In this document: in pieces, positions 15,614-37,072 of the stretch
How positions within the stretch are numbered: the stretch's first letter is position 1
Layout: each line of letters begins with the position of its first letter
IMG/VR virus record: IMGVR_UViG_3300037484_000565
Location: 1-61,374 of that record
DNA length: 61,374 nucleotides
Direction: 5' to 3' (one strand)
Source: a virus
Taxonomy: Duplodnaviria > Caudoviricetes
Notes under the pieces: generated by a model
What the model saw: the letters and a program-made list of their open reading frames with translations, nothing else
Databases searched by the model: none
What the model was told of the DNA's origin: nothing
Program-made: the position numbers and the translations under genes

Positions 15614-15639
15614 GTCCTTATCCTCCGTGATTCGTTTTC

Positions 15640-15746
15640 AGCGAAAAGGCCCGACTCACCCTGCCGCACTCAGGAGCGGCAGAGGATTCGGGCCTGAGAT
15701 TTCGCTGTGCTCACACTCCCCCGTCGGGGAGCGGCTTGTTAGAGTC
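15640..15746 (-). ncRNA. Conserved structured RNA element, copy A (upstream of tail tube gene)
   Basis: Bulged hairpin followed by a long GCGAAA..AGGCCCGA/UCGGGCCU..UUUCGC hairpin; homologous to copies B and C. Confidence 0.7.
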
Positions 15747-15764
15747 TGTCGTTTACCTGATCAT

Positions 15765-16163
15765 CTATGCCGTATCCGTCCTGTGAATCCTGAAGTTGAC
15801 GGTGAAATGCGGCCGGTGCAATTCGTCCGGCCCGATCGACATCACGTCTGTCTCAACCCAAATGCCGACGTACCGTGCACTATTGACGGTGACGTTGTGG
15901 AGCCCGTGAAGGACGTCGCGGATGTTCTGGCACAACTCATGTGCGATCTTGTATCCGCCCCGGCCGCCGCGCACTTTCACTTGCACGGTTGGCCGCTCGT
16001 AGAGGTAGTTCTCCTCGCCGGGATATCCTCCGGAATCGTAGACGCACACGCAGGCGTCCGGCGTTTCCGGCATTTGCCCGATGAACAGGTCCGTCGCAAA
16101 CGTCAGCGCCAGGCCGGTTTCGCCCTCAAGAATATCCTTGATGTCTTCTGATGGCGGGTTCAT
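15765..16163 (-). CDS. Tail terminator/minor capsid-type protein
   Basis: LFIGQMPETPD..VYDSGG..PTVQVKVRG; synteny. Confidence 0.8.
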   Translation of the reverse strand: MNPPSEDIKDILEGETGLALTFATDLFIGQMPETPDACVCVYDSGGYPGEENYLYERPTVQVKVRGGRGGYKIAHELCQNIRDVLHGLHNVTVNSARYVGIWVETDVMSIGPDELHRPHFTVNFRIHRTDTA

Positions 16164-16172
16164 CGCTCTGTC

Positions 16173-16547
16173 TCACTTAATGCGTATGCCGCGTGAAATG
16201 ATCTCAAACACTTCCCTTGCCTTCTCTACCAATGCCGTGGCCAGAAATCGCGCCTGTCCAACGACATGATGCGCGTCAAGATTCTCATGGACCCATATCG
16301 CATAAGCGGCAGTGAAGCCGATGATGGCTCCAACACCACGTCGCAGGCTAACAGTGACTTCTGTGTATGCCGAGTTTTTCAGATTCCCGGTGTCGACCGG
16401 TGTTAGCAGCTGTGCCGCCCTGCGTACAACCAGGGCCGCCCTGCGCATGACATCGGGACCCCGGTGTTTAACCGCGGCGATCTCCTTGTTGAGATTCCGA
16501 ATCACCTTATTCTGGCCGGTGATATTGATGGTCTTCCTCACAACCAC
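16173..16547 (-). CDS. HK97 gp10-like tail completion protein
   Basis: TPVDTGNLKNS, AAYAIWVHE, GQARFL. Confidence 0.85.
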   Translation of the reverse strand: MVVRKTINITGQNKVIRNLNKEIAAVKHRGPDVMRRAALVVRRAAQLLTPVDTGNLKNSAYTEVTVSLRRGVGAIIGFTAAYAIWVHENLDAHHVVGQARFLATALVEKAREVFEIISRGIRIK

Positions 16548-16897
16548 GCCATCCTCACATGCCGCGTCGCATCCAAAGACGGGACACTTTTGAATGCCCT
16601 GACTTCGAACGCGTCCGCATTGCCGAACGGCTCATCCTCACCCGAAGTGAGATCGACCAGCTCCCCGAGAAACAGGTAGTCATGCACGGCCACGTTGCGA
16701 TCGACGTACACAACGGCCCGGGAAAGCACTTCCCGCCCCGTGGCGTCGACGAACAGCTCCTGCCGCTGCTCCCACCGGCATTGAATCTCGATCCCATCGT
16801 CGAACGTCCGGCCTCCAAACCCGTCCAATACCGGATTGGTCCAGAGGACGGCCGTCTGCTGCAGCTGATTGAGGAGCACGGTAGACCGGCTGCTCAT
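16538..16897 (-). CDS. Head closure protein
   Basis: DGFGG..CRWEQ..DATGRE..SRAVVY; synteny. Confidence 0.75.
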   Translation of the reverse strand: MSSRSTVLLNQLQQTAVLWTNPVLDGFGGRTFDDGIEIQCRWEQRQELFVDATGREVLSRAVVYVDRNVAVHDYLFLGELVDLTSGEDEPFGNADAFEVRAFKSVPSLDATRHVRMAWL

Positions 16898-17259
16898 CCG
16901 ATCACCTTCATTTCTGCCGGTCCCTTGCTGTTCATGATCTCCGCGAACTTCCCCTTGTATTCGTGTAGCAGGACTTGCTGACCGAATGGTGTGAACTTCA
17001 GACCCATATCGCTCTTGCCGTGATACTGCACATCGGTCTCGCCGATCTTCTCGCGCGAGACCGCAGGATCACGGACCGCGACGAAGTGCGCCGCCAGCCA
17101 CAGCTCGATTTGCGCGAGCTCGTCGCTGGAATAGCCCATGTCGACCAACGCGCTATCGACCAGACTGCTGGCTGAACACAAGAACGGAGAGACCTGCTCT
17201 TCGCTCAGGCCCGTGCCGCAAATGGCGATCACTTCGGCCTCAGTTACGCGCTGTGACAT
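16894..17259 (-). CDS. Head-tail adaptor (connector) protein
   Basis: Start MSQRVT; IELWLAAHF..GLKFTPFGQ. Confidence 0.75.
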   Translation of the reverse strand: MSQRVTEAEVIAICGTGLSEEQVSPFLCSASSLVDSALVDMGYSSDELAQIELWLAAHFVAVRDPAVSREKIGETDVQYHGKSDMGLKFTPFGQQVLLHEYKGKFAEIMNSKGPAEMKVIG

Positions 17260-17957
17260 TTGCCTGCTCCTTTGAGCTCGAAGACACCCCGGCTCCACAG
17301 CACGGGTCTCAGAGCCATTTCTACCGCGTCCCGGTCCCAATCCAATGACAGGGTCACGATCAATTTCTGGAGTTCGTCGAATTGACCGGAGAGAAACCGT
17401 CCGGGCCAGATTTCCAACACATCGAATCCGCCAGCCACAAGGCCGCTCACCCTCTCAGCGTATGCACGGAGCCAGCGAGACAAGGCGACCTCGTCATTCG
17501 GGAGATCAGCATAATCAGTGTTCTTGCAGGAGCGGCTGATGCCGGCCTCATCCCGCCGGGCAAACACCCACACCGCGTCCGGAAACGCGGCGGCCCAAAC
17601 TGGCCAGATCAAGAGAGCGTCCGAGCCTCGATAGAGCCACGCGCCGGACGTGTATCCCTGGTGCCGGAGAATCGATTCAATCTGCGATCGCCAGCGCGGA
17701 GCGATCGCCGTGAATAGCTTTTCGCAGGCAGACAGATCGGGCATCGCCTCGACGCCCAGCACGTCGGAATGCAAACCTCGAAATAGGGGCCGCACGAGAA
17801 GATCCCGGACCTCTCGATTCCCGCCAGCATCGTTTAGCCGCGGTCGGTGATCATCGCCGCACACGTTCCACGCGCCGCATGCACTAAGCACGTGAGCCAC
17901 CAGGCTGGCGCCGGAGCGCGGGATCTCGGTCACGATGATGGGGCCCCCGTTCGTCAC
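17244..17957 (-). CDS. Sulfotransferase-like P-loop protein
   Basis: IVTEIPRSGASLV resembles the 5'-PSB motif; FPDAVWVFARRD..SRS resembles the 3'-PB motif; GTGA overlap with upstream stop. Confidence 0.6.
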   Translation of the reverse strand: MTNGGPIIVTEIPRSGASLVAHVLSACGAWNVCGDDHRPRLNDAGGNREVRDLLVRPLFRGLHSDVLGVEAMPDLSACEKLFTAIAPRWRSQIESILRHQGYTSGAWLYRGSDALLIWPVWAAAFPDAVWVFARRDEAGISRSCKNTDYADLPNDEVALSRWLRAYAERVSGLVAGGFDVLEIWPGRFLSGQFDELQKLIVTLSLDWDRDAVEMALRPVLWSRGVFELKGAGKCHSA

Positions 17958-19564
17958 CGCGCCTCCCCATCGACGATGGCCGATGTCATTGCGGAAATGA
18001 TGGATACATTCGGCGTTTGCGTATTGAGTGGGCGGTACCAGCGCCCGAGTCCATCTGGCGGACAAGCGTTTCTCCAAAAACGCTCATCGAAATACTTGTT
18101 CCAAAAAATCACGGTCGGTTTCCGAAACACCGTCGACATGATGGTATTGCCGCCGCAAAATCCGATGCACCCGAGAGCCCCCCGCATCAGACCGAAGAAT
18201 TGATCAAGCGAGGTCTGCCCGGTGAGGTCAATGATGAAGCGTGATTCAACCGGCAACTTCCGAGCCTTCGCCATCAGATATGCGTTAACGTTCTTTTCGC
18301 CACCCTCAGAATCCCACCGCGCCCCGGTCAAGACTATGCGCGCACCGGTTTCCGCATGGATCCCGCGCAGGGCCTCAAAGAGGCGATCGCGCGACAACTC
18401 CCTCAACCAGTGCTGCTCATACATTCCGTGATGCGTGAAAAAGGCCACGATATATTTGCCGAGCCCCCGCCCCATGCGCGCGCGATATGTGCGCTGGTCG
18501 ATGGATTCGAACATCGGTGGGTACCAATTCGTTGTGCACCCAGGAAAGCATTGATCCAGCGTCTTGCCGAACCGCATGGGGCCATTGGCCGACAGAAACC
18601 AATCAAAGCCATGGACATTGCGGAATACGCCGTTGCCGTCCTGCATGTACGCCTGTTTCCAGATTTTGTCTTTGCGCGTGTCGTGCGGGTAATAACCAGC
18701 GAAATGCACGAACGGGAACATCGATACGAACTCTGCCGACCGATCGCGTGACGGATCTGGACTGCTCACATAAATATCTGGCAGCGAACATCCGTGGAGA
18801 TCGACGAATGCTTGAAGCCGGCACAGCACCCAATAGATATCGCCGATGCCCGGTGGAACGAGAATTCTGGTGCGCTTCACCGGAGCCCTTCGGAGGTGCA
18901 ACACTATTTTGGACGGGATCGGTGAGTATGATCGCTCAAACCGAAAGCCACATCGCTCCGCGGCGCTTCGGAGCTGGTCTGTGTTGAGAAACCACAGATG
19001 CTCGGTCCTTTTCCAATGATGGGTGCCCGCATCCGAGAAGAAATGCGGGAAATCAATGATCAGGTGGCCGTCAGTGCGCAGGCATCGCGCCGCCTCAGAA
19101 AGCACAGCAATAGGATCGGGAACATGCTCCAAGCTGTCGTGAAATGTCACGAGGTCGAAACTCTCGGTTGGGAAGCGAGCATCTGCGAGAGCGCCAGGAT
19201 ATGTGCATCGATGTGAAGCATGGGGATCACAGCCGGTCGCCATCACTCCTTCGCTCTGGCAGCGATCGAGGAAGGCGCCATTCCCTGAACCGACATCCAG
19301 GAGCTTGATGCCACGATCGAGCGCGATTCCGATTCCTCGGTAGGCCGCCATTCTGATGGCGGCCACCTCGTAATCGTGATCATATGTATGCTGGTAAACA
19401 CCGCCGAAGTATGCGTCGCGGTACCACGTGATCATTTCGTCCGGACTCATACTGACAATCTGACGCAGAACGCCACATTGGCATCGCCGAACATCGATTC
19501 CGTGGACGGTATCGGGTGTACCATCGGTGTTGCCACAAATGCAGGTTAGTGCAGCACTCGGCAT
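17954..19564 (-). CDS. Class I SAM methyltransferase fused to GT9-like glycosyltransferase
   Basis: LLDVGSGNG, HDSLEHVPDP; then GIGDIYW...IDLTGQTSL..IGFCGG..KPTV. Confidence 0.8.
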   Translation of the reverse strand: MPSAALTCICGNTDGTPDTVHGIDVRRCQCGVLRQIVSMSPDEMITWYRDAYFGGVYQHTYDHDYEVAAIRMAAYRGIGIALDRGIKLLDVGSGNGAFLDRCQSEGVMATGCDPHASHRCTYPGALADARFPTESFDLVTFHDSLEHVPDPIAVLSEAARCLRTDGHLIIDFPHFFSDAGTHHWKRTEHLWFLNTDQLRSAAERCGFRFERSYSPIPSKIVLHLRRAPVKRTRILVPPGIGDIYWVLCRLQAFVDLHGCSLPDIYVSSPDPSRDRSAEFVSMFPFVHFAGYYPHDTRKDKIWKQAYMQDGNGVFRNVHGFDWFLSANGPMRFGKTLDQCFPGCTTNWYPPMFESIDQRTYRARMGRGLGKYIVAFFTHHGMYEQHWLRELSRDRLFEALRGIHAETGARIVLTGARWDSEGGEKNVNAYLMAKARKLPVESRFIIDLTGQTSLDQFFGLMRGALGCIGFCGGNTIMSTVFRKPTVIFWNKYFDERFWRNACPPDGLGRWYRPLNTQTPNVSIISAMTSAIVDGEAR

Positions 19565-19568
19565 TGAT

Positions 19569-20303
19569 CTATCTCCGCTCTTGTTGCAATTGCCAATGCT
19601 CTTCCATCCACGGTTCGTCGACAACATCCCCTGGCCGCGGCTTACCGTGAAAGCAGACGAGCCGCGCATCTTCTGGAAGCGCCTTGCCTTGGACGTGCAC
19701 CTTGTAACTGTAGACGCCGGAAACCAGGTCCTGGATGGCAACCGTCTCGACGCCTCTGGTCTTCAGCGCCTTATCGAGCCATTCCTGATCACCGCGGTGG
19801 ATGCCGCTCCTGCACTGCATCCGGAGCGCCTGAGACTGATCGATGTACACCGGCGGATTGAGCAGGTCTCGCTCGAATGCCTCCGTGATCCAGCCAGTGG
19901 AGACGTTTGCACTCCAACCCATGACCCCGGTGCAGCGGTCACCGCGGTAGAATCCTCGCAGCAACACGAGCTTGCGGGAGTCGATGACGGCCTGCGCCAG
20001 TTCGTCAATCGATCCGGTGATGATCGTGTCCAGGTCAAAATAGAGAACTGGGCCAGATAGTCGAAACAGATTCATCTTCGACCACCAGCCGCGCCAGGCA
20101 GGCGTTAGGCCCACGATTTCAACTCCGGAGGAACAGACCATTCTTATGCGCCCCGGCCTATCCGTGAGGCACACGAATCGACTCGACCCATTGAGATTTT
20201 TGCTCACGCCGTCGTACAACCGCCTAACGTCAGCGGGGATATAGGGCGCTCCGTTACCGATCAGGCGCTGCTCGTTCTTGTAGACACAGGCGACGGTGAT
20301 CAC
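19569..20303 (-). CDS. GT-A (GT8-like) glycosyltransferase
   Basis: FVCLTD, GWWSKM, YFDLD (DxD), GDQ, CFHGKPRP. Confidence 0.82.
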   Translation of the reverse strand: MITVACVYKNEQRLIGNGAPYIPADVRRLYDGVSKNLNGSSRFVCLTDRPGRIRMVCSSGVEIVGLTPAWRGWWSKMNLFRLSGPVLYFDLDTIITGSIDELAQAVIDSRKLVLLRGFYRGDRCTGVMGWSANVSTGWITEAFERDLLNPPVYIDQSQALRMQCRSGIHRGDQEWLDKALKTRGVETVAIQDLVSGVYSYKVHVQGKALPEDARLVCFHGKPRPGDVVDEPWMEEHWQLQQERR

Positions 20304-20488
20304 GGCTCCGCCTCCGCCATAACGTCACACGTGACGTCACGGAATGTCAGTTCCGCCCGGTTCGTTTCGTCAGCGATGTCAATCGTGATGACGATCTTCG
20401 TAATGTTAGTGATCTCTTCGCCCGTCTCGGCGTTCACGACTCGCGTCGGCACGGGCGAGCCGCCTTTGTTCTCAATGCGAATCTTCAT
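20300..20488 (-). CDS. Hypothetical protein
   Basis: Start/stop overlaps with both neighbours. Confidence 0.55.
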   Translation of the reverse strand: MKIRIENKGGSPVPTRVVNAETGEEITNITKIVITIDIADETNRAELTFRDVTCDVMAEAEP

Positions 20489-21120
20489 GGCAGCACCTCC
20501 GCCGGATCGACTATCGGGAATGCCGTCAGCGCACTGCCTGGCGTCGCGTTGATGCACTCGATCCCCAGCCGTTTGAGGCTTTCGGCGATTGCGGGGAACC
20601 GCGCCAGGAACTTCATGTAGGGATCATGAGTCGGCGCGTTCTTATGCTCCGAATGCCAGTTGTTTTGGCCGTCGACCTTGTGCATGTCGAAGCCGAGCAG
20701 GATGATCCGCTTCGCTCCGAAGTGGACGGCGAGATTGATGGCGCATGCTCCGGAGTTCGCATTCCAGGCGAGCAATGCCGGGTCCTTGAAGATTCCCTCC
20801 GGCGAGTTCTTCTTGCGCACGACGCGCACGCCGAGAGCGCGACCGAGCGCAGACAAGTGTCCCTCGTGCGCGCTGACCTTCAATCCCGGGAACTGTCGCA
20901 GTCCATCCTCGTGCCACTGCATCCATCGCAGGTCGCCGAAAAAGACAACGTCGATCCACGCCCCGAGCTTGTAGGCGTTGTTCACGGCGATAACCCGCTG
21001 CCCACGCAATCTATCCACGTCGACGCTCTTCAAACTCGGTCCGCCGCCGAGGATGAAGACCGTTCGCCCGGGCCAGATGCGCGGCACCCGCCAGTATCGG
21101 CCATCATCCTTGGTCGGCAT
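20485..21120 (-). CDS. MAF_flag10/MptE-like (DUF115) putative glycosyltransferase
   Basis: ILGGGPSL, VIAVN, NSG..AINLA..GAKRIILLGFDM, INATPGSAL. Confidence 0.75.
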   Translation of the reverse strand: MPTKDDGRYWRVPRIWPGRTVFILGGGPSLKSVDVDRLRGQRVIAVNNAYKLGAWIDVVFFGDLRWMQWHEDGLRQFPGLKVSAHEGHLSALGRALGVRVVRKKNSPEGIFKDPALLAWNANSGACAINLAVHFGAKRIILLGFDMHKVDGQNNWHSEHKNAPTHDPYMKFLARFPAIAESLKRLGIECINATPGSALTAFPIVDPAEVLP

Positions 21121-21478
21121 TTGGCTCCACCTGCACGGCTTCAACAAAATTGCCCGCGATTGTCGGCTCGCTGAACGTGTCGATCGACACGCCCGCGAGG
21201 TCTGCTGCTTCGTTGGCAGCGAGAGGTGCGTCGTTAATCGGATTGCCACTGCCCGGATTGACGACATTGAACGTCCCGTCACCGATAGGCACGATTGTCA
21301 GACCGTCTTTTGAGGGCACGACCGGCGGATCATCGTCGAGCTGCAAGAACTTGTCGATCGCTCCCCCCAGGTCCTGACGCTCGCAATCAATGACGTCGCC
21401 AGGCCGCACGATTACGGCCTGGCCATCCTTGGATTTCATGTGATGCTTACCGCATCCATCTTTCATCCGGAATCGCAT
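21104..21478 (-). CDS. Hypothetical protein following major capsid gene
   Basis: GGAG RBS upstream of MRFRMKDG; operon position. Confidence 0.6.
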   Translation of the reverse strand: MRFRMKDGCGKHHMKSKDGQAVIVRPGDVIDCERQDLGGAIDKFLQLDDDPPVVPSKDGLTIVPIGDGTFNVVNPGSGNPINDAPLAANEAADLAGVSIDTFSEPTIAGNFVEAVQVEPNADQG

Positions 21479-21545
21479 AGGACTCCTCCGCACTCGTTCA
21501 TTCATCAGCCGACTGTTTACGGCCGATCGTGAATTGACCACCCGC

Positions 21546-22589
21546 CTACGACAGGTGGATGATGCCGGACTTCCCGTCCTGGTCCGCGCGAATCTGCGGA
21601 ACCATGATGGCCATGACCTTGTAGTCGAACAGCATTCCACCCTTGGAATCCCATTCGACGGTGGTGATGTCGAGACCGGTGACCATCCGCACCGTATCCG
21701 GCTGCATCTCGGCCAGGATGACGTTGCTGGCGGTGAGCTTGTCGGCGACCTTCACGCCCTCGATGCCCGCGACCTGCAAAATGCGCTGACGGATCGTGAG
21801 ATCAGATGCGGCCTTGAAGTCGTCGTCGAGCACCTTCTCGTAGTTGGTCGGAACGTACAGCATCCACGGACCATAGTGCCCGTCGGTCAGCGATGCCTGC
21901 TTCATCGAGAGCACATCGGCGAGAATGTTGGCGCCGGTGTCCGAGGTCCAGGCGGTGCCGAGCGATACCGTGTTCCGGTTCGGGTGATTGGCGTATCCGT
22001 AGATCGTCCCGCCACCGAACGTGAACGAACCGGTGCCGTTGAAGAGCAGATCCTCGACGCATTCCGCAACCTTGCGGCCCGCGAGTTCCGCAGTGAAGAG
22101 ATCGAGACCGTCGCCGTTCTTCCGGCTTGCTTCGAGCACGCGGATCGACAACTGAAAATCCTTGTGCGCGATCGGCAACGGGAGGTACACCGTTTCGAAA
22201 TTCGGGCGATCTTTCGTGCCCGGCTTGTCGCCGGACATGGAGAGTTCGGCGGCGGAGATATCGCTGGCGTTCTGCGACTGCAGCACGGTCGAGGCGAGAC
22301 CGTTGCCGAGACGGTATTCCAGCCCGCGCGAGATCAGGTCCTGGACGCCGACCAGCCGCGAACGCGCAGCCTGCGCGACGCGCATGTCGAGCTCTTTCCA
22401 TTCATCGTACTTCAGCGTCGCGTTGACCGTCGGCGTCGCTTCGCCGTTCACGTTCATGTACGGTCGGCCATCTTTGCCGATCCATGTGCGCAGCGCATTG
22501 ACGTTCATGCCCCCGGCCATCAAGCGCCGGGCAACGTCTCCGTGTGCGGCGCCGTTGGCGAAGACGTCCATCAGTGGGTGACCCTTCAT
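21546..22589 (-). CDS. Major capsid protein (HK97 fold, encapsulin/linocin-like family)
   Basis: 347 aa; LVGVQDL, LPLPIAHKDFQLSIR.LEASR, YGYANHPNR; AAGGAGG RBS; head module position. Confidence 0.85.
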   Translation of the reverse strand: MKGHPLMDVFANGAAHGDVARRLMAGGMNVNALRTWIGKDGRPYMNVNGEATPTVNATLKYDEWKELDMRVAQAARSRLVGVQDLISRGLEYRLGNGLASTVLQSQNASDISAAELSMSGDKPGTKDRPNFETVYLPLPIAHKDFQLSIRVLEASRKNGDGLDLFTAELAGRKVAECVEDLLFNGTGSFTFGGGTIYGYANHPNRNTVSLGTAWTSDTGANILADVLSMKQASLTDGHYGPWMLYVPTNYEKVLDDDFKAASDLTIRQRILQVAGIEGVKVADKLTASNVILAEMQPDTVRMVTGLDITTVEWDSKGGMLFDYKVMAIMVPQIRADQDGKSGIIHLS

Positions 22590-22659
22590 TTGCGTATTCC
22601 TCCTTGCATTTCGTTCAGGTTGTCAATCGAATCCCGTTCAGCGTCTCCAGACTCCCCGG

Positions 22660-23121
22660 CTAGACGATCATCACCTTGATGCGCCGCGACGCGAGTGTCG
22701 TGCCGAGCGAACCGCTCAGATCGAGCGATTCCAGTGCGACCGCGACGATGCTGTTCGTCTTGACCAGGCCGACGGACGCATCCGTGTCGATCACCTGCAG
22801 CTCGCCGTCGCCGTGCGACTCGAGGAACGAGGTGAATGCTGTGGCGTTTTCGCCGTCTGCCAGGAGGGCGTAGACCTCGGACCCCGGCGCGAACACGCCG
22901 AGCGAGACCACGTTGCTGATCGTGTACACGTCGGTGACGTCATTGCCCTGGTGGTCGTCTTCGAGCGCGAACATCGGATAGGCGTTGCCAGCCAGCGTCG
23001 CATGCTTCTTGACTCCGGTCGCGGTCAGCTCGCAGAGGTAGCCGGGATAGATATCGCCGGCGTCCGCGGTGGCCTCGTGCTTGATCGGATCTCCCTTGAG
23101 GGTGATCGTGTTGTATGCCAT
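22660..23121 (-). CDS. Capsid decoration/cement protein
   Basis: Small beta-rich protein between protease and MCP; GAGGAGG RBS. Confidence 0.7.
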   Translation of the reverse strand: MAYNTITLKGDPIKHEATADAGDIYPGYLCELTATGVKKHATLAGNAYPMFALEDDHQGNDVTDVYTISNVVSLGVFAPGSEVYALLADGENATAFTSFLESHGDGELQVIDTDASVGLVKTNSIVAVALESLDLSGSLGTTLASRRIKVMIV

Positions 23122-23152
23122 CGTGATTTCCTCCTCGATCCATGTTGGATTC

Positions 23153-23262
23153 CGCGAAAAAGGCCCTGCGCTTCTCCGGTCGCTGAGGCAGGACCGGAGG
23201 CACAGGGCCTCAGACTTTCGCGTCGCCTTAACCGGGGATCGGCCGGTGGCGTGTGAGTCAGA
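23153..23262 (-). ncRNA. Conserved structured RNA element, copy B (upstream of capsid genes)
   Basis: GCC-ACCGG/CCGGU-UAA-GGC then GCGAAAGUCUGAGGCCCUG...CAGGGCCUUUUUCGC. Confidence 0.7.
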
Positions 23263-23328
23263 ATCTCAATTCATCGTTTGCGTTACGTCGTCTCCGCTCG
23301 TGCGCGGGCAATGCCGCGTTAGGCAGCC

Positions 23329-25113
23329 TTACTTCTTCTCGAACGTCTTCGGAGCTTCCAGCACCGTCTCGGTGTTGGCCGCCGGCGCCGGACCGCCCCC
23401 CTTGCCTTCGAAGTTGACCTCGACAGCCCCGAGATCGGCGAGCTGCTGCAACTCGGTCGTGCACTTCACCTGGAGCTGTTCGGCAGTGAACTTGTTGCGC
23501 GTGTTGGCCAGGAGCCCATCGATGAGCGCTTTCTTGGCGGCGTTCTCGCGCGCGAGCGCGTTGACCAGCAGCGGCTTGAATTCCGGCGGCGCTGCGGCGA
23601 CGTACTCATCGGCCGTCTTCGCAACCACCGGAGCCGCATTCGTTGCCGGCGCCGCCGCGGGAGTGACTTCCGCCGGTGTGAGTTTGTCGATCTGTTCGTC
23701 CGAGAGGCTGTCCAGCCACGGACGGTCGCACTCGACAAACCGTGTCGCCGTATTGGCGATCAGGGCGTCGATTTTGGTTTTCTTCATCGTGTTTTTCTCC
23801 TTCCGTTTGTTGGCAGCCATCTCGGGAACGGGCGTATAAACCGTCTCCTCGATGACTTCAGTGACTGTTTCTCCGAGTGTGACGACGCCGGCGTCGCCCA
23901 TGGAGTAATCGCGCTTGTACAGGTGATAGGAGTATCCACCTGTCGCCGGATTGTGACCGCGTGCCTCGTAGATGAAATAGGCGTCGAACACTGTTCGCAC
24001 CCAGTTGATCCACTGGTCGCTGTCGAATGTGTTGACGATCTGCTGGAGCTTCCCGCGGATCGAGTCGTGACTGACATCGGCGTTGATGGTCCAAGCGAAG
24101 CCCAGATCCTTCAACGCGCGCAGTGCAGCGATCGGGCTCGGCTTGGGATCGAGATCGCCAATGGCGGGCGCCGCCGCGGGTGCCGGGATTCCCGTATTGA
24201 GCGTGCCCATGGCATTGGTTGCATTGGTTGCGATGTTTGCCGGATCGCCGAGTGGTAATTGACCGGCTGCTGCTTTCGTCATAGGTTCCTCCAGTGTAGC
24301 TTGATTCGCTCTGACTCCGCATCCGTCAGCCCAAGAGCACGCACCCTGCCCTCCAGGGAGAACGGCAAGATGGTCAGGGCGGATGTTCGTCATGACCGCT
24401 TCGTATGTCTCGCCGTTCCATGTGCCGGATGCCTCCTCAATGTCTCCGAATAATCCGGTGGAGACTTCCAACTGACGACCGGAACGGATGATTGACAGCA
24501 GGGCCGGTTCGACCGCCATCGCCTTGTCTTCGTCGAACCATATTTCGGCGCGGAGCTTCGATGCACCTCGATCGAAGTGCGCGTGAAAGAGCCGACCCAC
24601 CACCTGGCTCTCGATGACTTCGGGCGAGTTGGCCGAGACGGGGCGATCTCCTTCGAATGGATGGAAGAGCGGCACGGCCGCGCCATTCCACGATTCGACG
24701 TGCTGTGCGAGCTCATCAGAGGAGTAGAAAATCGGGATTCCACTGACGCCTATGTGCACGCCCTCAACCATGAGAACCACGGGGACCACGATCTGCTTGC
24801 GTCCATCGAGCATCGCTTCGCGGATCGTGTATTCCTGGGCAGATGAAACCGTGAAGACCTCTGCCATATTCGCTTCCGGTGTCGCCGCTTCGAAGGTCCC
24901 CCCGTGCGCTTCACAGTGCTCGCGCGCCTGGGCTTCGGTCCAACTGCGAATCTTGTACCGGTACGCCTGGTCCTCGTAGCTGCCGTCTGATTTCTTGCCC
25001 CGAATCACGTCGTGCGTTTTGTCGATACTCGCAGAGTGACGCTTGACGCGCGAGAAGCTCGCGTATCGGCCCGGCGGATGCAGGCGGCAGGCGTGTTCAT
25101 TCGGATATGGCAT
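23329..25113 (-). CDS. Capsid maturation protease/scaffold (DUF2213-like)
   Basis: W.GAAVPLFHP, LEVSTG, IRPDHLAVLP..GACS..DGCG; low-complexity scaffold-like C-terminus. Confidence 0.82.
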   Translation of the reverse strand: MPYPNEHACRLHPPGRYASFSRVKRHSASIDKTHDVIRGKKSDGSYEDQAYRYKIRSWTEAQAREHCEAHGGTFEAATPEANMAEVFTVSSAQEYTIREAMLDGRKQIVVPVVLMVEGVHIGVSGIPIFYSSDELAQHVESWNGAAVPLFHPFEGDRPVSANSPEVIESQVVGRLFHAHFDRGASKLRAEIWFDEDKAMAVEPALLSIIRSGRQLEVSTGLFGDIEEASGTWNGETYEAVMTNIRPDHLAVLPGGQGACSWADGCGVRANQATLEEPMTKAAAGQLPLGDPANIATNATNAMGTLNTGIPAPAAAPAIGDLDPKPSPIAALRALKDLGFAWTINADVSHDSIRGKLQQIVNTFDSDQWINWVRTVFDAYFIYEARGHNPATGGYSYHLYKRDYSMGDAGVVTLGETVTEVIEETVYTPVPEMAANKRKEKNTMKKTKIDALIANTATRFVECDRPWLDSLSDEQIDKLTPAEVTPAAAPATNAAPVVAKTADEYVAAAPPEFKPLLVNALARENAAKKALIDGLLANTRNKFTAEQLQVKCTTELQQLADLGAVEVNFEGKGGGPAPAANTETVLEAPKTFEKK

Positions 25114-30615: not shown

Positions 30616-30618
30616 CGT

Positions 30619-31944: not shown

Positions 31945-31946
31945 CG

Positions 31947-32651: not shown

Positions 32652-32876
32652 TCAGTAGTAGATCACCGTGTCGGCCACAAACAACAGAGTGTCCGCGCCG
32701 TTCACGACCAGGACGCGGTGAATCTTCGCCGAATCCGCCGCCATCGGGAACCACGGTAGACACTGCCGTTCACAATCCGATTGGAAGTAAGTCACGGTCC
32801 ACTCGTGATGCGTGCTCGCTGCGAACGCCGATGCCGTGAGCACCAGAAGTGCGGCGATTGCAAATACTCGTCTCAT
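32652..32876 (-). CDS. Small secreted protein
   Basis: Signal-peptide-like MRRVFAIAALLVLTASAFA. Confidence 0.6.
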   Translation of the reverse strand: MRRVFAIAALLVLTASAFAASTHHEWTVTYFQSDCERQCLPWFPMAADSAKIHRVLVVNGADTLLFVADTVIYY

Positions 32877-33436
32877 GATTGCCCTTTCTCGTATACCACT
32901 CGCCAGTCGCGAAACTTGGCGAGAAAGTAGGCCGGGTCGATCTCGTTTGTTGGCCGGTCAAACATCGCGCCGCCTGCTTCCAGGACTTGCGCCGCCGCCG
33001 TTGAACACACCCTGTACTTGTTCATCCTATCCCCGAAGATTCTGAATTGAGGAATCCCTGCGACGGCAGCAATACCCATGTCCAAAAGGTCGCCCCAGTC
33101 GTATGGAGCCCCGATCATCGGGTCAGCGGCGATCAACATCGAGTCGATCGCGAGATTGCCATCGGCCCAGCGCACGACCTTGCATCGTTTCTTGTCGATC
33201 TCGGTCTCCTCAAAGAGCGTGTACTTCGCCTTCGGCCAGGTCGCCTCAAAGAACACGTTGCCCAGCCACAGCCGCGCGTGCGTAGGGTCGCAGTCGACCG
33301 AGTCGCCCCACTTCTTCCGCTGGTACGCCCGGATCGCACGGTACACGACCCAGAGCACCCAGCGGCGTGGGGGCCAGAGGCCCGCAGACCCGTAGGTCAG
33401 GAGCACGTCACCGGGAATCAGGTCGTGTGGTGTCAT
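32873..33436 (-). CDS. Permuted papain-like (YiiX/YebB NlpC/P60) amidase
   Basis: PGDVLL, THA, GAPYD, VCS (His before Cys). Confidence 0.7.
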   Translation of the reverse strand: MTPHDLIPGDVLLTYGSAGLWPPRRWVLWVVYRAIRAYQRKKWGDSVDCDPTHARLWLGNVFFEATWPKAKYTLFEETEIDKKRCKVVRWADGNLAIDSMLIAADPMIGAPYDWGDLLDMGIAAVAGIPQFRIFGDRMNKYRVCSTAAAQVLEAGGAMFDRPTNEIDPAYFLAKFRDWRVVYEKGQS

Positions 33437-33660
33437 GGCGCAATCATCCTCGCAATCAGAGTGACGATGCCGCCACCTACCAATGCCGCGATCCCCGTAA
33501 TCGCCGTAACCTTGACCCGCATCGTCGCAATCTCAACCGTCAATGCGGTTATAGCGTTGCGCAACTCCAAGATTTCCGCACGGTGTTCCTTCAGTTCGAT
33601 CAGTACATGCCGGGACCACTCGTTCCAACCATTGGCGAGATGATTTTCACTTCCGGGCAT
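33433..33660 (-). CDS. Holin-like/XhlA-like small membrane protein
   Basis: Coiled segment followed by a C-terminal transmembrane helix. Confidence 0.5.
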   Translation of the reverse strand: MPGSENHLANGWNEWSRHVLIELKEHRAEILELRNAITALTVEIATMRVKVTAITGIAALVGGGIVTLIARMIAP

Positions 33661-34048
33661 CCGGGTATCCTTTGTCTACGGGGATGGTAATGGCGATCCC
33701 CTCGGTGTCTTCCAATGCCTCGATGACATGAGGTACATTTATGTCGATGAGTACGTGACTGACAACTACCGCCTCGATGACCGAGGGCTTATCTACCCCC
33801 AGCGTTACTCTCAGCTGTCCCCGATAAACAATTAACCACTCGCGGACGTCGTGCCTGTGCGATGGAAATACGGACCCCCTGGGCATGTAGAACACTTGAA
33901 CGCCAATTCCGGTTTCGCGGTAAAGTCCGATCCCAAGGCAACTCCCCTTTTCAACGGCATAGGACACGTTCACCGTCCCCGTCGGCACGACAGGCAGGTG
34001 CGGCGTAAGAGCCTCCAGCCGCTTGATTCCGCTGTCGTCTTCAATCAT
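33647..34048 (-). CDS. Cupin-domain protein
   Basis: FPSHRHDVREWLIVYRG...NVPH. Confidence 0.75.
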   Translation of the reverse strand: MIEDDSGIKRLEALTPHLPVVPTGTVNVSYAVEKGSCLGIGLYRETGIGVQVFYMPRGSVFPSHRHDVREWLIVYRGQLRVTLGVDKPSVIEAVVVSHVLIDINVPHVIEALEDTEGIAITIPVDKGYPDARK

Positions 34049-34082
34049 GGACGTGTGTTTCTCCCGTTGCCATTGCCACCCC

Positions 34083-35516
34083 TCAACTATCCGCGTTCAC
34101 GTCGTCTATGTCAGTAGGGACGTCGCCGTCGGCCTCTTCGTCCTGGGTCGCGATCATCTCCTCGATCTGATCGAGTTGGTCTCGGTTGTATCCCATGACA
34201 TCCGTGAGATAGAACTGCCGCGGAACAAGCGTCTCAGCTCCGGAGCCGACGTAGGTTGACATCGCCTCGCTTTTGGTCTTCGCGACGTCGGCTTTCTCTT
34301 TTTCGCTCTGCTTAAGCAGCGGTGCCCACTCGCACGTATAGGCGCCGTCCTTCGGCGCCGGGAGTACGCCATGCTCGATCAGTCGATCGACAAAGGGACG
34401 GACGATTTTCGGCTCACAGTGCCCCTCGCGCCGTTCGTCGACCCGCGCGTACCAGTTCACCTCGTCCTGGCCGGATGCGAGCTCTCCCATCTCCGAGCCG
34501 AGCAGGATGCGTTTGGGAATGCGAGTGACGGCGGAGATCAGGGTGATATACAGGTCGGCTTGGTTTTTCGGATCGCCGATCTGCTGCGCGATATTCTCGA
34601 TACTCAATCCCTGCAGGCGCATGTACCGCTTCAGGCCGTGCACGTACTCCTCGATTTCGGCTTCGAGCTTCGGCTCGTCCTGGATGCCCAGGGTTGCCCC
34701 GTCATCCAATTTCAGCCCGAATCCGGGGAACGCTCCCCGCCAGAACATTTCAGCCGATCCGCCCGCCACCAGGTCCAAGTCCTGCAGACGATTCAGTACC
34801 GCCTCAAGACGCGGTAATCCGAGGATGTCATCATCCAGGTTATCCTCTGAAACGTGAATCACGCGCGACCAGTGCACTTGCAGAGTGCGAGACGATTGCG
34901 ATCCCTGCGCGGTCCGCATGTTGATCGAGTACTTCTCCGGCAGTGAATATCGAGGGTCTTTCACGTCGCTGACGTACGTCGCGATGCTGGCGTTCGCCTG
35001 GCTGTAAGGCATCACATACAGGACCTCCGTAGCGCGCTTAACCGGCTGCCAGAGCTGCGCCCCATCGTCGAATCCGATTAGGAGGACGGCGTACTCGCCG
35101 ATCGACGCGAGCCGATCGACACGGCTGAAGTAATCCCACACGCGTAGTTTGGTCGCGACCTCCGCCCACTGCTTCTCGAATGCGGTCTCTTCCTCTTCGC
35201 TTTCGGTGAGCGCTGGTGGCTTCCGCCAGCAGGCGCGCACAGGGACGTCGACAGCGGCCTTGGCAATGTCCTGCCGCCGATAATGCGCCATGAAATCCGA
35301 GAAGAGCGGGAGCTTCTTGTATCCCAACGCATCGTAGATGTCACGATCACCGCCGAAGGATTTGCCCAGATACGAAGCCACGCCGGCGCGAGTGCCGAGC
35401 ATCGACATCGCGGTGAACATCTGACGCGCTTGCAGGACCGATAATTGGTCGCCGTTACTCGGCGCCGCGGCTGCGGGTCGGATTCGATTCTTTGGCGTTT
35501 GTATCGTCTTTGCCAT
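34083..35516 (-). CDS. Portal protein (DUF1073-like)
   Basis: Follows terL; VHWSRVIH, GGSAEMFWRGA, IPKRILLGSE.GELAS. Confidence 0.85.
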   Translation of the reverse strand: MAKTIQTPKNRIRPAAAAPSNGDQLSVLQARQMFTAMSMLGTRAGVASYLGKSFGGDRDIYDALGYKKLPLFSDFMAHYRRQDIAKAAVDVPVRACWRKPPALTESEEEETAFEKQWAEVATKLRVWDYFSRVDRLASIGEYAVLLIGFDDGAQLWQPVKRATEVLYVMPYSQANASIATYVSDVKDPRYSLPEKYSINMRTAQGSQSSRTLQVHWSRVIHVSEDNLDDDILGLPRLEAVLNRLQDLDLVAGGSAEMFWRGAFPGFGLKLDDGATLGIQDEPKLEAEIEEYVHGLKRYMRLQGLSIENIAQQIGDPKNQADLYITLISAVTRIPKRILLGSEMGELASGQDEVNWYARVDERREGHCEPKIVRPFVDRLIEHGVLPAPKDGAYTCEWAPLLKQSEKEKADVAKTKSEAMSTYVGSGAETLVPRQFYLTDVMGYNRDQLDQIEEMIATQDEEADGDVPTDIDDVNADS

Positions 35517-35518
35517 AG

Positions 35519-36934
35519 CTATGCCGCCGCTCCCCACACGCCCGCCCGCTTCAACGCGGTCAGGCAATGGAAACCACCACTCAGCGAGTCCGTCTGGTCG
35601 GAAACGCATTGATCGCTGCCGTCGAAATTCTCCAACTCGCGCAGCAAGTCTTCGTTCCAGGGACCCCGGAGAACCTTGACGTTGCCCGCCTCGCACTGAG
35701 CCGAGAGCGGTTTCGCGCGCATGCCCTTGGATTCGCGCACGGTATTCACGCCGGCATCGTAGCCCGCGAGATTGCGCACATGCACCGCAGCCTCGGCTTT
35801 GCCTGCCTGGCCGGGATCCTGCTCGAATCGAGCGCGGACTCTGTGGCCATCCTGCGATGCGACGTTCTTGATCCGCGATTCAACCTCGAGCGGAGAACCG
35901 TGGAAGCGAACGATGTCGAGGATGTAATACAGGCCCCTGGCTGACTTGCCGACCTTCGCGCCGGACGTGAACGAGGCCTTGCCGCGCTTCTCGGCGGTCT
36001 TCGCATCCGTCGCCGCGCGATCCCAGTAACGCACGACGTCGATCAATTCGGGCACCGCGTCGACGATCTCGAACCATGACCGCTGGAAGTACATGCCCGC
36101 GGTGTAGCGAATGTTCCAGTTCCCCTTGCGTAGGCGCTCGCGATCGACACGCGGGAGCGCATCGAGGTTCGCTCGATATTGCGGATCCTTGCGCATGAGC
36201 GCGGGATTGTCCTCGAGACGGCCCGGGATGAACGTGAAGGACTTCGGGAGACACTCTTCGCCGAACTGCGCTACGAGCTCCTCGGGAGAACCAGCCCAGG
36301 TCGTCGAATCGTTGCGTGTGTAGAACCACCGGATTATCCCAGAGCGTTCCTCGATCGGATATCCACTCGCATCGTCGATCCACCAGGACATGAACGATCG
36401 CAGCCAATGATCGGGATCCGGATTGCAGGTCGCGCGGACGTAGGGCACAACGCCGCACGTTGTGCGATTGCGGGAGAGCATGTACCAGAACTGCCGCCAG
36501 GTGAATGACTCGAGCTGGTCAAAACCGATCAGCGGAATCTGAGAGCCATCCCAATTCAGATAATCGTGCTCGCCCTCCATGTGCGCGAAACGGATCCGGG
36601 ATCCAGAGGGGAACTTCCACTCGAGCGTTGATTCCTTGGGGATGGCGCCGCAGGGGCGGTAGAGTCCGAACGAGGTATCCCACAGCCCGCCCTCCTGGCG
36701 GATCTGCGGTGAAGTCCTGCGGAAGATGACGGTGCCGAATCCGGGATTGTCGACATGCCGCAAGGCCTCCATGAGCAACCCGAAGCTCTTGCCGGCGCCG
36801 GCCGCGCCGCCGTACACCGCGATATCCGCCGAGGTATGCAGGAATTGCTCCTGTGGCCCCGCCTGCGGCCGCACGTCGATCAAGTCGACTGTCGGTCTCA
36901 TCGGTGGCGGTGCTGTGGCGATCATCGGGATCAT
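35519..36934 (-). CDS. terL: Terminase large subunit
   Basis: Walker A YGGAAGAGKS, IGFDQL, ATCNPD; nuclease RYWDRAAT, EQDPGQAGK, DQTDSLSG. Confidence 0.95.
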   Translation of the reverse strand: MIPMIATAPPPMRPTVDLIDVRPQAGPQEQFLHTSADIAVYGGAAGAGKSFGLLMEALRHVDNPGFGTVIFRRTSPQIRQEGGLWDTSFGLYRPCGAIPKESTLEWKFPSGSRIRFAHMEGEHDYLNWDGSQIPLIGFDQLESFTWRQFWYMLSRNRTTCGVVPYVRATCNPDPDHWLRSFMSWWIDDASGYPIEERSGIIRWFYTRNDSTTWAGSPEELVAQFGEECLPKSFTFIPGRLEDNPALMRKDPQYRANLDALPRVDRERLRKGNWNIRYTAGMYFQRSWFEIVDAVPELIDVVRYWDRAATDAKTAEKRGKASFTSGAKVGKSARGLYYILDIVRFHGSPLEVESRIKNVASQDGHRVRARFEQDPGQAGKAEAAVHVRNLAGYDAGVNTVRESKGMRAKPLSAQCEAGNVKVLRGPWNEDLLRELENFDGSDQCVSDQTDSLSGGFHCLTALKRAGVWGAAA

Positions 36935-36956
36935 CGTGTTTTCGGTTTGTCCCTTT

Positions 36957-37061
36957 CGCGAAAAGGGTCTCCGCCAACTCTTCCTGCTGGGTAGCAGAAG
37001 AGGGCGAAGACCCCAGACTTTCGCGATGCTCACACCGGTAGCGAACCGGCGGCTTGTCAGG
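36957..37061 (-). ncRNA. Conserved structured RNA element, copy C (upstream of terL)
   Basis: CUGACAAGCCGCCGG..CCGGUGUGAGC then GCGAAAGUCUGGGGUCU...AGACCCUUUUCGC. Confidence 0.7.
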
Positions 37062-37072
37062 CCATGGTTAGG

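What the first reader, a model, noticed from the sequence alone, without database searches (positions are those of the whole stretch)
15640..37061. Three copies of a covarying pseudoknot/switch RNA element in front of terL, capsid and tail-tube genes
Seen: three intergenic minus-strand elements (15640-15746, 23153-23262, 36957-37061) share one architecture despite different stem sequences. Each has CURAC, then a hairpin with a 3-nt URA bulge (GC-stem-UGA/UAA-GC), then a long hairpin closed by GCGAAA/UUUCGC with a 5' bulge and an apical loop. The apical loop is complementary to the bulge region and the two change together: CUCAGG/CCUGAG (A), CUGAGG/CCUCAG (B), CUGGG/CCCAG (C). That pairing overlaps the base of the stem that precedes the UUUU run. 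Each copy ends about 20-30 nt before the start codon of a key late gene. Inference: a cis-acting late-gene RNA device, such as a terminator/antiterminator switch, processing site, translational control element or unknown ribozyme. I do not recognise it as a described family.
Basis: partly seen in the sequence, partly recalled or inferred. Interest (0 to 1): 0.88.

Follow-up and report, generated by a model that had tools for sequence, protein, structure and literature searches.

The report
Three structured terminator-like RNAs in phage late operon
A temperate tailed phage carries three related, strongly folded RNA elements, each a small bulged hairpin followed by a long terminator-like hairpin, placed just before its packaging, head and tail-tube genes; they most likely act as checkpoints for late-gene transcription and match no described RNA family.

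Summary
Three minus-strand intergenic elements (15747-15636, 23262-23149, 37065-36953) share one architecture. It runs: a CUNACA motif, a bulged hairpin P1, a 3-nt linker, then a 65-68-nt hairpin closed by GCGAAA/UUUCGC. The stems differ but stay paired: 15 of 39 pairs change on both sides, matched by 0 of 500 shuffles. The apical-loop/5'-bulge complementarity is real (6, 7 and 5 bp) and two of its positions covary.

The elements precede the tail tube gene, the head-decoration gene (capsid is the next gene) and terL. Rfam 15 has no match. A covariance model found no copy in 306 fetched loci (189 carry relatives of this phage's terL, capsid or tail-tube genes) or 2 whole records. Contigs from one soil-metagenome study do carry elements A and B.

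In each copy a G+C-rich stem sits directly against U4-5 on the coding strand only. I therefore read them as intrinsic-terminator-type attenuators gating three late-gene blocks. The loop/bulge pairing is a possible built-in antiterminator and P1 a possible factor site (confidence 0.45). The main rival is an mRNA processing or stabilising site.

No partner protein, RNA data or wide phylogeny was obtained. I rate it a new variant of a known kind, of moderate interest.

The parts
15636..15747 (-). Element A, whole
   Evidence: R1 hit of 90.3 bits. MFE -64.6 kcal/mol, z -6.66.
15736..15744 (-). A: single-stranded motif containing CUAAC
   Evidence: Sequence; conserved columns.
15709..15735 (-). A: hairpin P1 (2 bp, 3' bulge UGA, 8 bp, 4-nt loop)
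15641..15705 (-). A: long hairpin P2-P3-P4. The P3-P4 part is -35.0 kcal/mol and sits directly against U4 (15647-15644).
15693..15698 (-). A: 5' strand of the loop/bulge pairing (bulge plus base of P3)
15669..15674 (-). A: apical-loop strand of the loop/bulge pairing
15191..15613 (-). Tail tube (major tail) gene downstream of A
   Evidence: Pfam Phage_TTP_11 at 2.5e-13; phrog_158 at 1.6e-23. GC3 0.84.
15765..16163 (-). Tail terminator / head-tail connector gene upstream of A
   Evidence: PF12691 at 8.2e-18.
23149..23262 (-). Element B, whole
   Evidence: R1 hit of 111.5 bits. MFE -63.6 kcal/mol, z -5.98.
23225..23250 (-). B: hairpin P1 (3 bp, 3' bulge UAA, 5 bp, 7-nt loop)
23154..23221 (-). 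B: long hairpin P2-P3-P4. The P3-P4 part is -38.4 kcal/mol and sits directly against U5 (23161-23157).
23208..23213 (-). B: 5' strand of the loop/bulge pairing
23183..23188 (-). B: apical-loop strand of the loop/bulge pairing
22660..23121 (-). Head decoration gene directly downstream of B
   Evidence: phrog_766 at 2e-06. GC3 0.86.
21546..22589 (-). Major capsid gene, second gene after B
   Evidence: PF19774 at 1.3e-26; phrog_771 and phrog_264. GC3 0.83.
23329..25113 (-). 594-aa head protease/scaffold-like gene upstream of B
   Evidence: PF09979; head-maturation-protease PHROGs.
36953..37065 (-). Element C, whole
   Evidence: R1 hit of 120 bits. MFE -57.9 kcal/mol, z -5.37.
37028..37053 (-). 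C: hairpin P1 (2 bp, 3' bulge UGA, 7 bp, 5-nt loop)
36958..37024 (-). C: long hairpin P2-P3-P4. The P3-P4 part is -32.9 kcal/mol and sits directly against U4 (36964-36961).
37012..37016 (-). C: 5' strand of the loop/bulge pairing
36987..36991 (-). C: apical strand of the loop/bulge pairing (its last two bases are in the top of P4)
35519..36934 (-). terL downstream of C
   Evidence: Terminase_6N at 1.7e-26; phrog_979 at 2.7e-153.
37073..37312 (-). 79-aa ORF between terS and element C. Its start overlaps the terS stop.
   Evidence: No family found.
37309..37845 (-). terS
   Evidence: phrog_4044 at 4.7e-13.

Best explanation
Each element is a transcription attenuator built around an intrinsic (factor-independent) terminator. 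The G+C-rich P3-P4 hairpin is followed at once by U4-5, so host RNA polymerase coming from the upstream late genes tends to stop before terL, before the decoration and capsid genes, and before the tail tube gene. Expression of these blocks then needs read-through.

Two conserved extras are candidates for making read-through conditional:
- The apical loop can pair with the 5' bulge and the bottom of P3 before the 3' half of the hairpin is made. That would withhold the base of the terminator stem.
- The invariant motif and bulged hairpin P1, just upstream, could be the landing site of an unknown factor.

In RNA that has read through, GCGAAA pairs with the U-tract and extends the hairpin to about 30 bp in the 5' leader of the next gene.

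Shown: the structure, its covariation, the stem/U-tract geometry, its strand asymmetry and its gene context. Inferred: termination itself, read-through control, and the roles of P1 and of the loop/bulge pairing.
For: Terminator geometry:
- In my hairpin-plus-T4 scan, the three elements are the three most stable of 8 minus-strand hits: -35.0, -38.4 and -32.9 kcal/mol against -30.4 to -13.8 for the others.
- The 4-nt bulge is on the 5' side, so the U-run touches the stem only in the coding-strand RNA.
- GCGAAA, the U-tract and the G/C base of P3 are invariant, while 12 of 23 pairs of P3-P4 change on both sides.

Context:
- No sigma-70-like site lies between the U-tract and the start codons.
- No motif is shared upstream of the elements. 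The downstream genes therefore depend on transcripts that cross the elements.
- The phage has an integrase, so tight silencing of late genes is useful to it.
- One relative (L235, tail tube protein 61% identical) has an ordinary intrinsic terminator at the same junction.

Loop/bulge pairing:
- It covers the bottom 2-4 bases of the 5' strand of P3, and two of its positions covary.
- It appears in the minimum-energy fold of a partial transcript of B.

Relatives:
- In relatives from one soil study, the listed indels inside B fall in the P1 loop, at the motif/P1 junction, and in or next to the 3' bulge. The next-to-bulge indel removes the first base of the P3 3' strand.

Precedent (passages read):
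- Terminators inside phage-derived structural clusters are bypassed by antiterminators. In Caulobacter GTA, terminator repeats lie after the first gene and GafZ bypasses them (PMC11150451). In Bartonella GTA, BrrG does the same (10.1101/2024.11.20.624540).
Against: - No RNA data: no 3' ends were seen.
- The tool's own consensus terminator scan does not list the three elements. Its model needs an uninterrupted stem next to the T run.
- The hairpins (47-49 nt, 18-21 pairs in the P3-P4 part) are longer than the usual terminator as I recall it.
- Elements A and B sit exactly where expression should rise. The downstream genes have the highest GC3 of the called minus-strand genes, 0.83-0.86. A stop signal there is paradoxical unless it is efficiently bypassed.
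- No antiterminator or RNA-binding protein was recognised among 47 ORFs scanned against Pfam and/or PHROGs.
- P1 does not overlap the terminator, and I found no alternative pairing between them that is shared by all three copies.
- At equilibrium the rod form is by far the most stable. The loop/bulge helix could act only transiently or if something stabilises it.
- Most relatives do without any such element. Of 73 tail-tube relatives, 70 have 45 nt or less before that gene. L148, with a capsid protein 75% identical, has 44 nt before its decoration gene.
Confidence: 0.45

Rival explanations
1. The element is an mRNA processing and stability device. The roughly 30-bp rod (P2-P3-P4) would be a double-strand-specific RNase site, or a barrier to RNase E scanning and to exonucleases. 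P1 and the rod would cap the ends of the resulting segments. The result would be long-lived, well-translated mRNAs for the abundant decoration, capsid and tail tube proteins.
For: - Elements A and B lie exactly at low-to-high expression boundaries. The downstream genes have GC3 of 0.83-0.86, the highest of the called minus-strand genes.
- The hairpin has two helical turns or more, with conserved small bulges, and lies between cistrons.
- Three paralogous intercistronic hairpins with different stems recall, from memory, the RNase III signals of phage T7.
- The rod ends 23-32 nt before the start codon. It could insulate the ribosome-binding site from upstream RNA.
Against: - A stabiliser needs no invariant U4-5 directly against a G+C-rich stem, and no strand asymmetry.
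- Element C precedes terL, which has no need for high expression and has no clear Shine-Dalgarno sequence.
- The loop/bulge covariation is not explained.
- No phage nuclease partner was found, and no RNA data exist.
Confidence: 0.25
2. The element is a folded RNA with a function of its own. It could be a cis-acting RNA that modifies RNA polymerase, as HK022 put RNA does. It could be a ligand- or protein-sensing switch whose aptamer includes P1 and the loop/bulge pseudoknot. It could be an undescribed ribozyme.
For: - Two adjacent stem-loops with conserved bulges and invariant single-stranded bases.
- Loop/bulge complementarity with two compensatory positions.
- No match to any Rfam family.
- In a divergent relative, the element regions were among the few stretches at 80% identity or more.
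Against: - Distribution is very narrow. The model R1 found no copy in 306 fetched loci or 2 whole records.
- put RNA lies just after early promoters and carries no terminator of its own (PMC9378689, passages).
- Only 0-2 loop bases flank the paired loop bases, so the pseudoknot cannot coexist with an intact P4 (inference).
- No known ribozyme model matched, even at E up to 10.
Confidence: 0.12
3. The element is a spreading palindromic intergenic cassette, in the manner of REP or MITE repeats. It would be tolerated between genes, with at most a generic hairpin effect.
For: - It looks like an insertion. Relatives have short junctions at the same places.
- Distribution is patchy: absent from L148 (capsid 75% identical), yet present in a phage whose capsid protein is about 58% identical, where the element regions still match at 80% or more.
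Against: - Only three copies, and their stems differ by compensatory changes rather than being near-identical.
- I saw no terminal duplications in the flanks.
- All three copies share one orientation and one kind of position, 23-32 nt before a start codon.
- No transposase-like gene was seen apart from the integrase.
Confidence: 0.1

Closest known systems
Intrinsic terminators inside phage or GTA late clusters that are bypassed by processive antiterminators (lambda Q with tR', recalled; Caulobacter GTA terGTA with GafZ, PMC11150451; Bartonella GTA with BrrG, 10.1101/2024.11.20.624540)
   Same: G+C-rich inverted repeats inside a structural-gene cluster. Element C lies after the first late genes, as terGTA lies after gtaT. 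In both cases downstream expression needs read-through.
   Different: - Here there are three dispersed copies, each before a different module.
- Each copy has its own conserved upstream hairpin and an internal loop/bulge complementarity.
- No Q-, GafZ- or BrrG-like protein was recognised.
- Termination was not tested.
HK022 put RNA (cis-acting antiterminator RNA)
   Same: Two adjacent stem-loops with functionally important bulges; multi-copy in one phage; acts in cis (PMC9378689, passages).
   Different: - put is about 70 nt, lies after the early promoters and has no U-tract terminator of its own.
- These elements are about 110 nt, lie in the late operon and end in a terminator-like hairpin.
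- Sequence likeness was not tested, because I had no put sequence from a tool.
Lambda-type nut sites (boxA plus boxB)
   Same: A short conserved single-stranded motif followed by a small hairpin, upstream of a terminator.
   Different: - P1 is 26-27 nt with a 3-nt bulge, not a 15-nt hairpin.
- The likeness of the motif to boxA, as I recall it, is weak.
- Three sites lie in the late operon rather than two near early promoters.
- No N-like protein was found.
Phage T7 RNase III processing signals and lambda sib/tI (recalled)
   Same: Paralogous intercistronic hairpins of two helical turns or more with internal irregularities. As I recall for sib, the helix becomes longer only in read-through RNA; here P2 forms from GCGAAA and the U-tract.
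   Different: - A conserved U-tract sits directly against the stem.
- An extra hairpin P1 is present.
- No cleavage data exist.
Riboswitch- or protein-controlled attenuators with a pseudoknot that competes with the terminator
   Same: A pairing that uses bases of the terminator's 5' strand and could exclude its base.
   Different: - There is no aptamer conserved across taxa and no known ligand.
- The competing helix involves the terminator's own apical loop.
- Homologues are confined to one phage lineage.

Membership tests
Intrinsic (Rho-independent) terminator | G+C-rich hairpin followed at once by a U-run on the transcribed strand | tested here: met
   P3-P4 is -32.9 to -38.4 kcal/mol and sits directly against U4, U5 and U4. 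On the other strand a 4-5-nt spacer and only three T follow the stem.
Intrinsic (Rho-independent) terminator | Compact uninterrupted stem and short loop, as in consensus scanners | tested here: not met
   The tool's terminator scan lists none of the three. The stems carry bulges and span 47-49 nt.
Intrinsic (Rho-independent) terminator | RNA 3' ends and release at the U-run | not testable with these tools
   No RNA holder was listed. This needs Term-seq or in vitro transcription.
Any Rfam 15 family | Covariance-model score at or above the gathering threshold | tested here: not met
   only two tRNAs in the window; only mir-8791 at 35.1 bits against a gathering score of 85; this is a generic hairpin match.
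H-type pseudoknot (loop/bulge) | Complementary segments that covary | tested here: met
   6, 7 and 5 bp. Two positions change on both sides, and one pair is lost in C. Loop shuffles reach the observed run in 1074, 49 and 3260 of 20000 trials.
H-type pseudoknot (loop/bulge) | Both helices can exist at once | tested here: inconclusive
   Only 0-2 loop bases flank the paired loop bases. By recalled loop-length rules the top of P4 would have to open. No probing data exist.
Lambda-type nut site | boxA consensus, 15-nt boxB hairpin, N-type protein | tested here: not met
   P1 is 26-27 nt with a bulge. No N-like family was found among the scanned ORFs. The boxA comparison is from recall only.
HK022 put RNA | About 70 nt, two stem-loops, just downstream of early promoters, suppresses distant terminators | tested here: not met
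   The elements have two stem-loops, but they are about 110 nt, lie in the late operon and end in a terminator-like stem. put features are from PMC9378689. Activity cannot be tested here.
RNase III processing signal | About 20 bp or more of double-stranded RNA between cistrons | tested here: met
   25-30 pairs in P2-P4.
RNase III processing signal | Cleavage by RNase III | not testable with these tools
   No RNA data.
REP/MITE-type repeat | Many near-identical copies, terminal repeats with target duplications | tested here: not met
   Three copies in the record. 15 of 39 pairs differ by compensatory change. No duplications were seen in the flanks.

The most novel reading that the evidence does not exclude
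Each element is a self-contained RNA switch of a new class. A pseudoknot forms between the terminator's own apical loop and its 5' bulge and stem base. It is stabilised by a factor or ligand sensed through the invariant motif and bulged hairpin P1, and it disables the terminator. Three individually tuned copies (each with its own loop/bulge sequence) would then gate the packaging, head and tail modules of the late operon separately. The cassette can move between phages.
Probability: 0.15. Interest if true: 0.8.

Novelty: new variant of a known kind. Interest (0 to 1): 0.5.

Why it matters
If the elements are conditional terminators, this phage controls its late operon at three internal RNA checkpoints rather than at a single promoter-proximal terminator. 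It does so with a compact, portable cassette of about 110 nt that most of its relatives lack. That would be a testable example of modular, RNA-level gating of packaging, head and tail genes. The three naturally matched loop/bulge variants are ready-made compensatory mutants for experiments.

If the elements are only processing or stabilising hairpins, they are an ordinary solution to unequal protein needs within one operon. Either way the known distribution is narrow, so the general importance is limited until more members are found.

Tried and rejected
1. Known RNA families. Rfam at gathering thresholds on the whole window and at E up to 10 on the three loci gave nothing relevant.

2. More copies in the record. 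Pattern and model searches find only the three. The next best R1 hits score 9.7 and 9.2 bits.

3. Homologues by DNA pattern.
All 116 were scanned with R1. None is real; the best is L084 at 15.5 bits, E 0.73, and it lies away from the pattern match.
   - Viral contigs, strict A/C-type P1 pattern: one chance hit inside a coding region, and R1 is negative on that record.
   - Viral contigs, refined hairpin pattern: 0.
   - Metagenome contigs: 0.
   - Genome contigs: one hit (L146) without a hairpin. R1 gave 23.4 and 12.9 bits in that genome, judged to be noise.

4. Homologues by neighbouring proteins, then R1.
   - 24 terL loci (one hit at E 5.8).
   - L004.
   - 80 capsid loci from metagenomes (0 hits).
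   - 5 P0086-like loci (0 hits).
   - 80 tail-tube loci (0 hits).

5. Analogous but unrelated structures in relatives.
   - Folding upstream of terL in 24 loci showed nothing alike.
   - A scan for long hairpins plus T4 over 81 loci gave 4 hits in 3 loci, none like the elements.
   - Gap lengths before the tail tube gene in 73 of 80 loci. I left out 7 by hand: L240, L246, L259, L263, L278, L288 and L305. Most had under 1 kb upstream or a match lacking the first residues.

6. Expression data. No RNA holder was listed. All laid runs are DNA contigs, so they give no ends and no levels.

7. Partner protein.
   - Pfam and/or PHROGs on 47 ORFs found no antiterminator, RNA polymerase or ribonuclease.
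   - The 123-aa protein just before the late region folds as a winged helix (pLDDT 90.9). Its best PDB matches are weak and GntR-like, with best E 0.12. It is not Q-like.
   - A zinc-ribbon ORF in 38121-38759 has no family.

8. Trans partner RNA. No consistent complement of 10-12 nt to the conserved parts exists elsewhere in the genome.

9. Shared promoter or activator site upstream of the elements: none. One promoter-like site lies at 15787-15760, but such sites are no more frequent than in shuffles.

10. Alternative pairing between P1 and the terminator that is shared by all three copies: none seen. Two complementarities occur in one copy only: the P1 bulge with the 5' bulge in A, and the P1 loop with the 5' UTR in B.

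11. Pairing of the apical loop with the Shine-Dalgarno sequence is only 3-4 bp, by eye. I rejected it.

12. A hammerhead, twister or group II domain V likeness came to mind from recall. None is supported by Rfam.

The contigs of the relatives that do carry the elements therefore could not be fetched.

14. Literature. Searches targeted antitermination and processing precedents. They could not find this motif by sequence, so I make no claim about print beyond Rfam 15. Supplements were not consulted.

Full report
**What the window is.** The window is a whole IMG/VR virus record of 61,374 bases, about 90% complete by CheckV, with 59% G+C. Almost all genes are on the minus strand. It carries an integrase, two tRNA genes and a siphovirus-type structural module. 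The nearest cultured relatives are distant. Rhizobium phages share TerL at 51% and Brevundimonas phages share the capsid protein at 36%. Megablast of window 15000-24000 (9 kb) against GenBank phages found nothing.

**Observation.** The three elements are at 15747-15636, 23262-23149 and 37065-36953 on the minus strand.
- The closing-stem pattern occurs 3 times against 0.11 expected; 0 of 100 shuffles reach 3.
- A pattern for the motif, P1 and GCGAAA occurs 3 times against 0.00 expected.
- Each element folds far better than its shuffles. MFEs are -64.6, -63.6 and -57.9 kcal/mol, z-scores are -6.7, -6.0 and -5.4, and 0 of 200 shuffles do as well.

**Anatomy**. From 5' to 3':
- a single-stranded CUAAC or CUGAC motif;
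- hairpin P1, made of 2-3 bp, a 3-nt 3' bulge (UGA, UAA, UGA) and 5-8 bp;
- a 3-nt linker;
- P2, GCGAAA paired with UUUCGC;
- a 4-nt 5' bulge;
- P3, of 11-12 positions;
- a 1-2-nt 3' bulge;
- P4, of 8-10 bp;
- the apical loop.

P1a, P2, the first bases of P3 and P4 and the U-run are invariant. The inner stems differ but stay paired.
- On the MAFFT alignment with the RNAalifold structure, 15 of 39 pairs change on both sides.
- 88.9% of cells are paired.
- No shuffle of 500 reaches this, and sliding the partners gives 1-5 such pairs.
- The caveats are three paralogues only, and a structure derived from the same sequences.

**Context.**
- A lies between the tail terminator gene (stop at 15765) and the tail tube gene (start at 15613).
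- B lies between a 594-aa protease/scaffold-like gene (stop at 23329) and a head-decoration gene (start at 23121), which the capsid gene follows.
- C lies between a 79-aa ORF (stop at 37073) that follows terS and terL (start at 36934).
- The rod ends 27, 32 and 23 nt before the start codons.
- The genes after A and B have the highest GC3 of the called minus-strand genes, 0.83-0.86. This fits their being the most abundant virion proteins.

**Loop/bulge pairing.** The apical loop is complementary to the 3' part of the 5' bulge plus the bottom of P3. The runs are 6 bp in A, 7 bp in B and 5 bp in C.
- Between copies, two positions change on both sides (C-G to G-C, and A-U to G-C). The sixth pair is lost in C.
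- Shuffled loops reach the observed run in 1074, 49 and 3260 of 20000 trials.
- The copies are paralogues, so these figures are not independent.
- The pairing appears in the minimum-energy fold of a partial transcript of B.
- Only 0-2 loop bases flank the paired loop bases. I therefore infer that it cannot coexist with an intact P4. It is better seen as an alternative, early-forming helix than as a static pseudoknot.

**Is it known, and how widespread is it?** Rfam 15 gives nothing.

Model R1 scores the three copies at 120, 111.5 and 90.3 bits and nothing else in the window above 9.7 bits. It found no credible copy in any of these:
- 116 pattern-selected viral loci;
- 24 terL-relative loci;
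- 80 capsid-relative metagenome loci;
- 5 further capsid relatives;
- 80 tail-tube relatives;
- two whole records.

Stricter patterns found nothing real in viral, metagenome or genome contigs.

Relatives have short junctions instead.
- L148 (capsid 75% identical) has 44 nt before its decoration gene.
- 70 of 73 tail-tube relatives have 45 nt or less before that gene.

Yet relatives with the elements do exist. Contigs of two soil runs from one study were laid on 15100-25100.
- They include a lineage about 91-92% identical that spans A and B.
- They also include a much more divergent phage that matches at 80% or more only in short pieces, among them 15634-15755 (element A) and 23153-23236 (most of element B).
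- One contig of that divergent phage has the same length, 32,969 nt, as the longest contig on record for capsid homologue P0086, which is 58% identical. The link between them is an inference.
- The listed indels inside B fall in the P1 loop, at the motif/P1 junction, and in or next to the 3' bulge. The next-to-bulge indel removes the first base of the P3 3' strand.
- The substitutions inside the elements were not shown to me.
- I could not fetch these contigs, so the elements could not be added to the alignment.

**Terminator features.**
- In each copy the G+C-rich P3-P4 hairpin sits directly against U4-5. In my scan these are the three most stable of 8 such minus-strand sites.
- The bulge is on the 5' side, so the same DNA read on the other strand has a spacer and only three T after the stem.
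- The tool's simpler terminator scan does not list the elements.
- There is no promoter-like site between the U-run and the start codons, and no motif is shared upstream.
- One relative, L235, has a plain intrinsic terminator at the same tail terminator/tail tube junction.

**Partner search.** No antiterminator, phage RNA polymerase or ribonuclease was recognised among 47 ORFs.
- The 123-aa protein encoded just before the late region is a winged-helix protein with only weak GntR-like structural matches.
- A zinc-ribbon ORF lies in the otherwise unassigned 570 nt before the late genes.
- No trans RNA complement was found.

**Mechanism.** I favour attenuation, with confidence 0.45. Under this reading the elements are intrinsic-terminator-type stops inside the late operon, and they must be read through for the packaging, head and tail blocks to be expressed.
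- The loop/bulge helix is a candidate built-in antiterminator, because it withholds the base of the terminator stem.
- The invariant motif and P1 are a candidate factor site.
- After read-through, GCGAAA pairs with the U-run and the rod becomes part of the 5' leader.

Precedents come from passages read. In Caulobacter GTA, terminator repeats after the first gene are bypassed by GafZ. [quoted passage not shown] Lambda Q is recalled.

The main difficulty is that A and B sit where expression should rise. That favours the main rival, a processing or stabilising hairpin (0.25). That rival, however, does not explain the invariant U-run directly against the stem or the strand asymmetry.

Two further readings remain:
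- A put-like, riboswitch-like or ribozyme function (0.12). put RNA is about 70 nt, has two stem-loops and lies after early promoters.
- A spreading palindromic cassette without a dedicated function (0.10).

**Verdict.** The element belongs to no described RNA family. Its working parts look like a decorated intrinsic terminator, and its known distribution is one phage lineage. I file it as a new variant of a known kind, with interest 0.5.

Noticed in passing
window 37073-37312 (-): A 79-aa ORF whose start overlaps the terS stop codon. It ends 12 nt before the motif of element C. No Pfam or PHROG family matched.
   Followed up: partly
window 38121-38759 (-), mainly its 3' part: An ORF with CxxC...CxxC zinc-ribbon-like motifs, in the roughly 570-nt stretch between the winged-helix gene and the first late genes. 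It has only sub-threshold Pfam zinc-ribbon hits (E 0.15-0.9). It is a candidate late regulator.
   Followed up: partly
window 38636-39007 (-): A 123-aa protein that models confidently (pLDDT 90.9) as a winged helix followed by a long C-terminal helix. It has 88 relatives at E up to 0.001 in the representative library. Its best PDB fold matches are weak (E 0.12, GntR-like).
   Followed up: yes
window 48416-50170 (-): A second terminase-large-subunit-like ORF of 584 aa (phrog_2666 at 2.2e-17) in the replication/early region, far from the real terL.
   Followed up: no
window 54229-54379 (-): Two adjacent tRNA genes, Pro(TGG) and Thr(CGT). The long ORF 52559-54301 runs into the first, so its true start must lie further downstream.
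   Followed up: no
window 58431-59564 (+) and 55843-56352 (-): A tyrosine integrase and an HTH_17 excisionase-like regulator. The phage is therefore temperate.
   Followed up: no
L235 8931-8958 (+): A relative with 42% G+C and a tail tube protein 61% identical. It has an ordinary intrinsic terminator (9-bp stem, T6) in a 100-nt gap at the same tail terminator/tail tube junction. Its ribosome-binding region is nearly identical to the window's.
   Followed up: partly
window 25782-25740 (-): A weak R1 hit (9.2 bits, E 2.7) that resembles only the motif plus P1, inside or at the end of a coding region. It is probably chance.
   Followed up: no
window 55097-55035 (-) and 58323-58276 (-): Two further terminator-like hairpins with U4 tails (-30.4 and -23.9 kcal/mol) in the early/lysogeny region. 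They lack the motif, P1 and the GCGAAA closing stem.
   Followed up: no
protein P0122: A TerL identical to the window's is on record on a second contig of 63,970 nt, longer than this record. A more complete copy of the phage may therefore exist.
   Followed up: no
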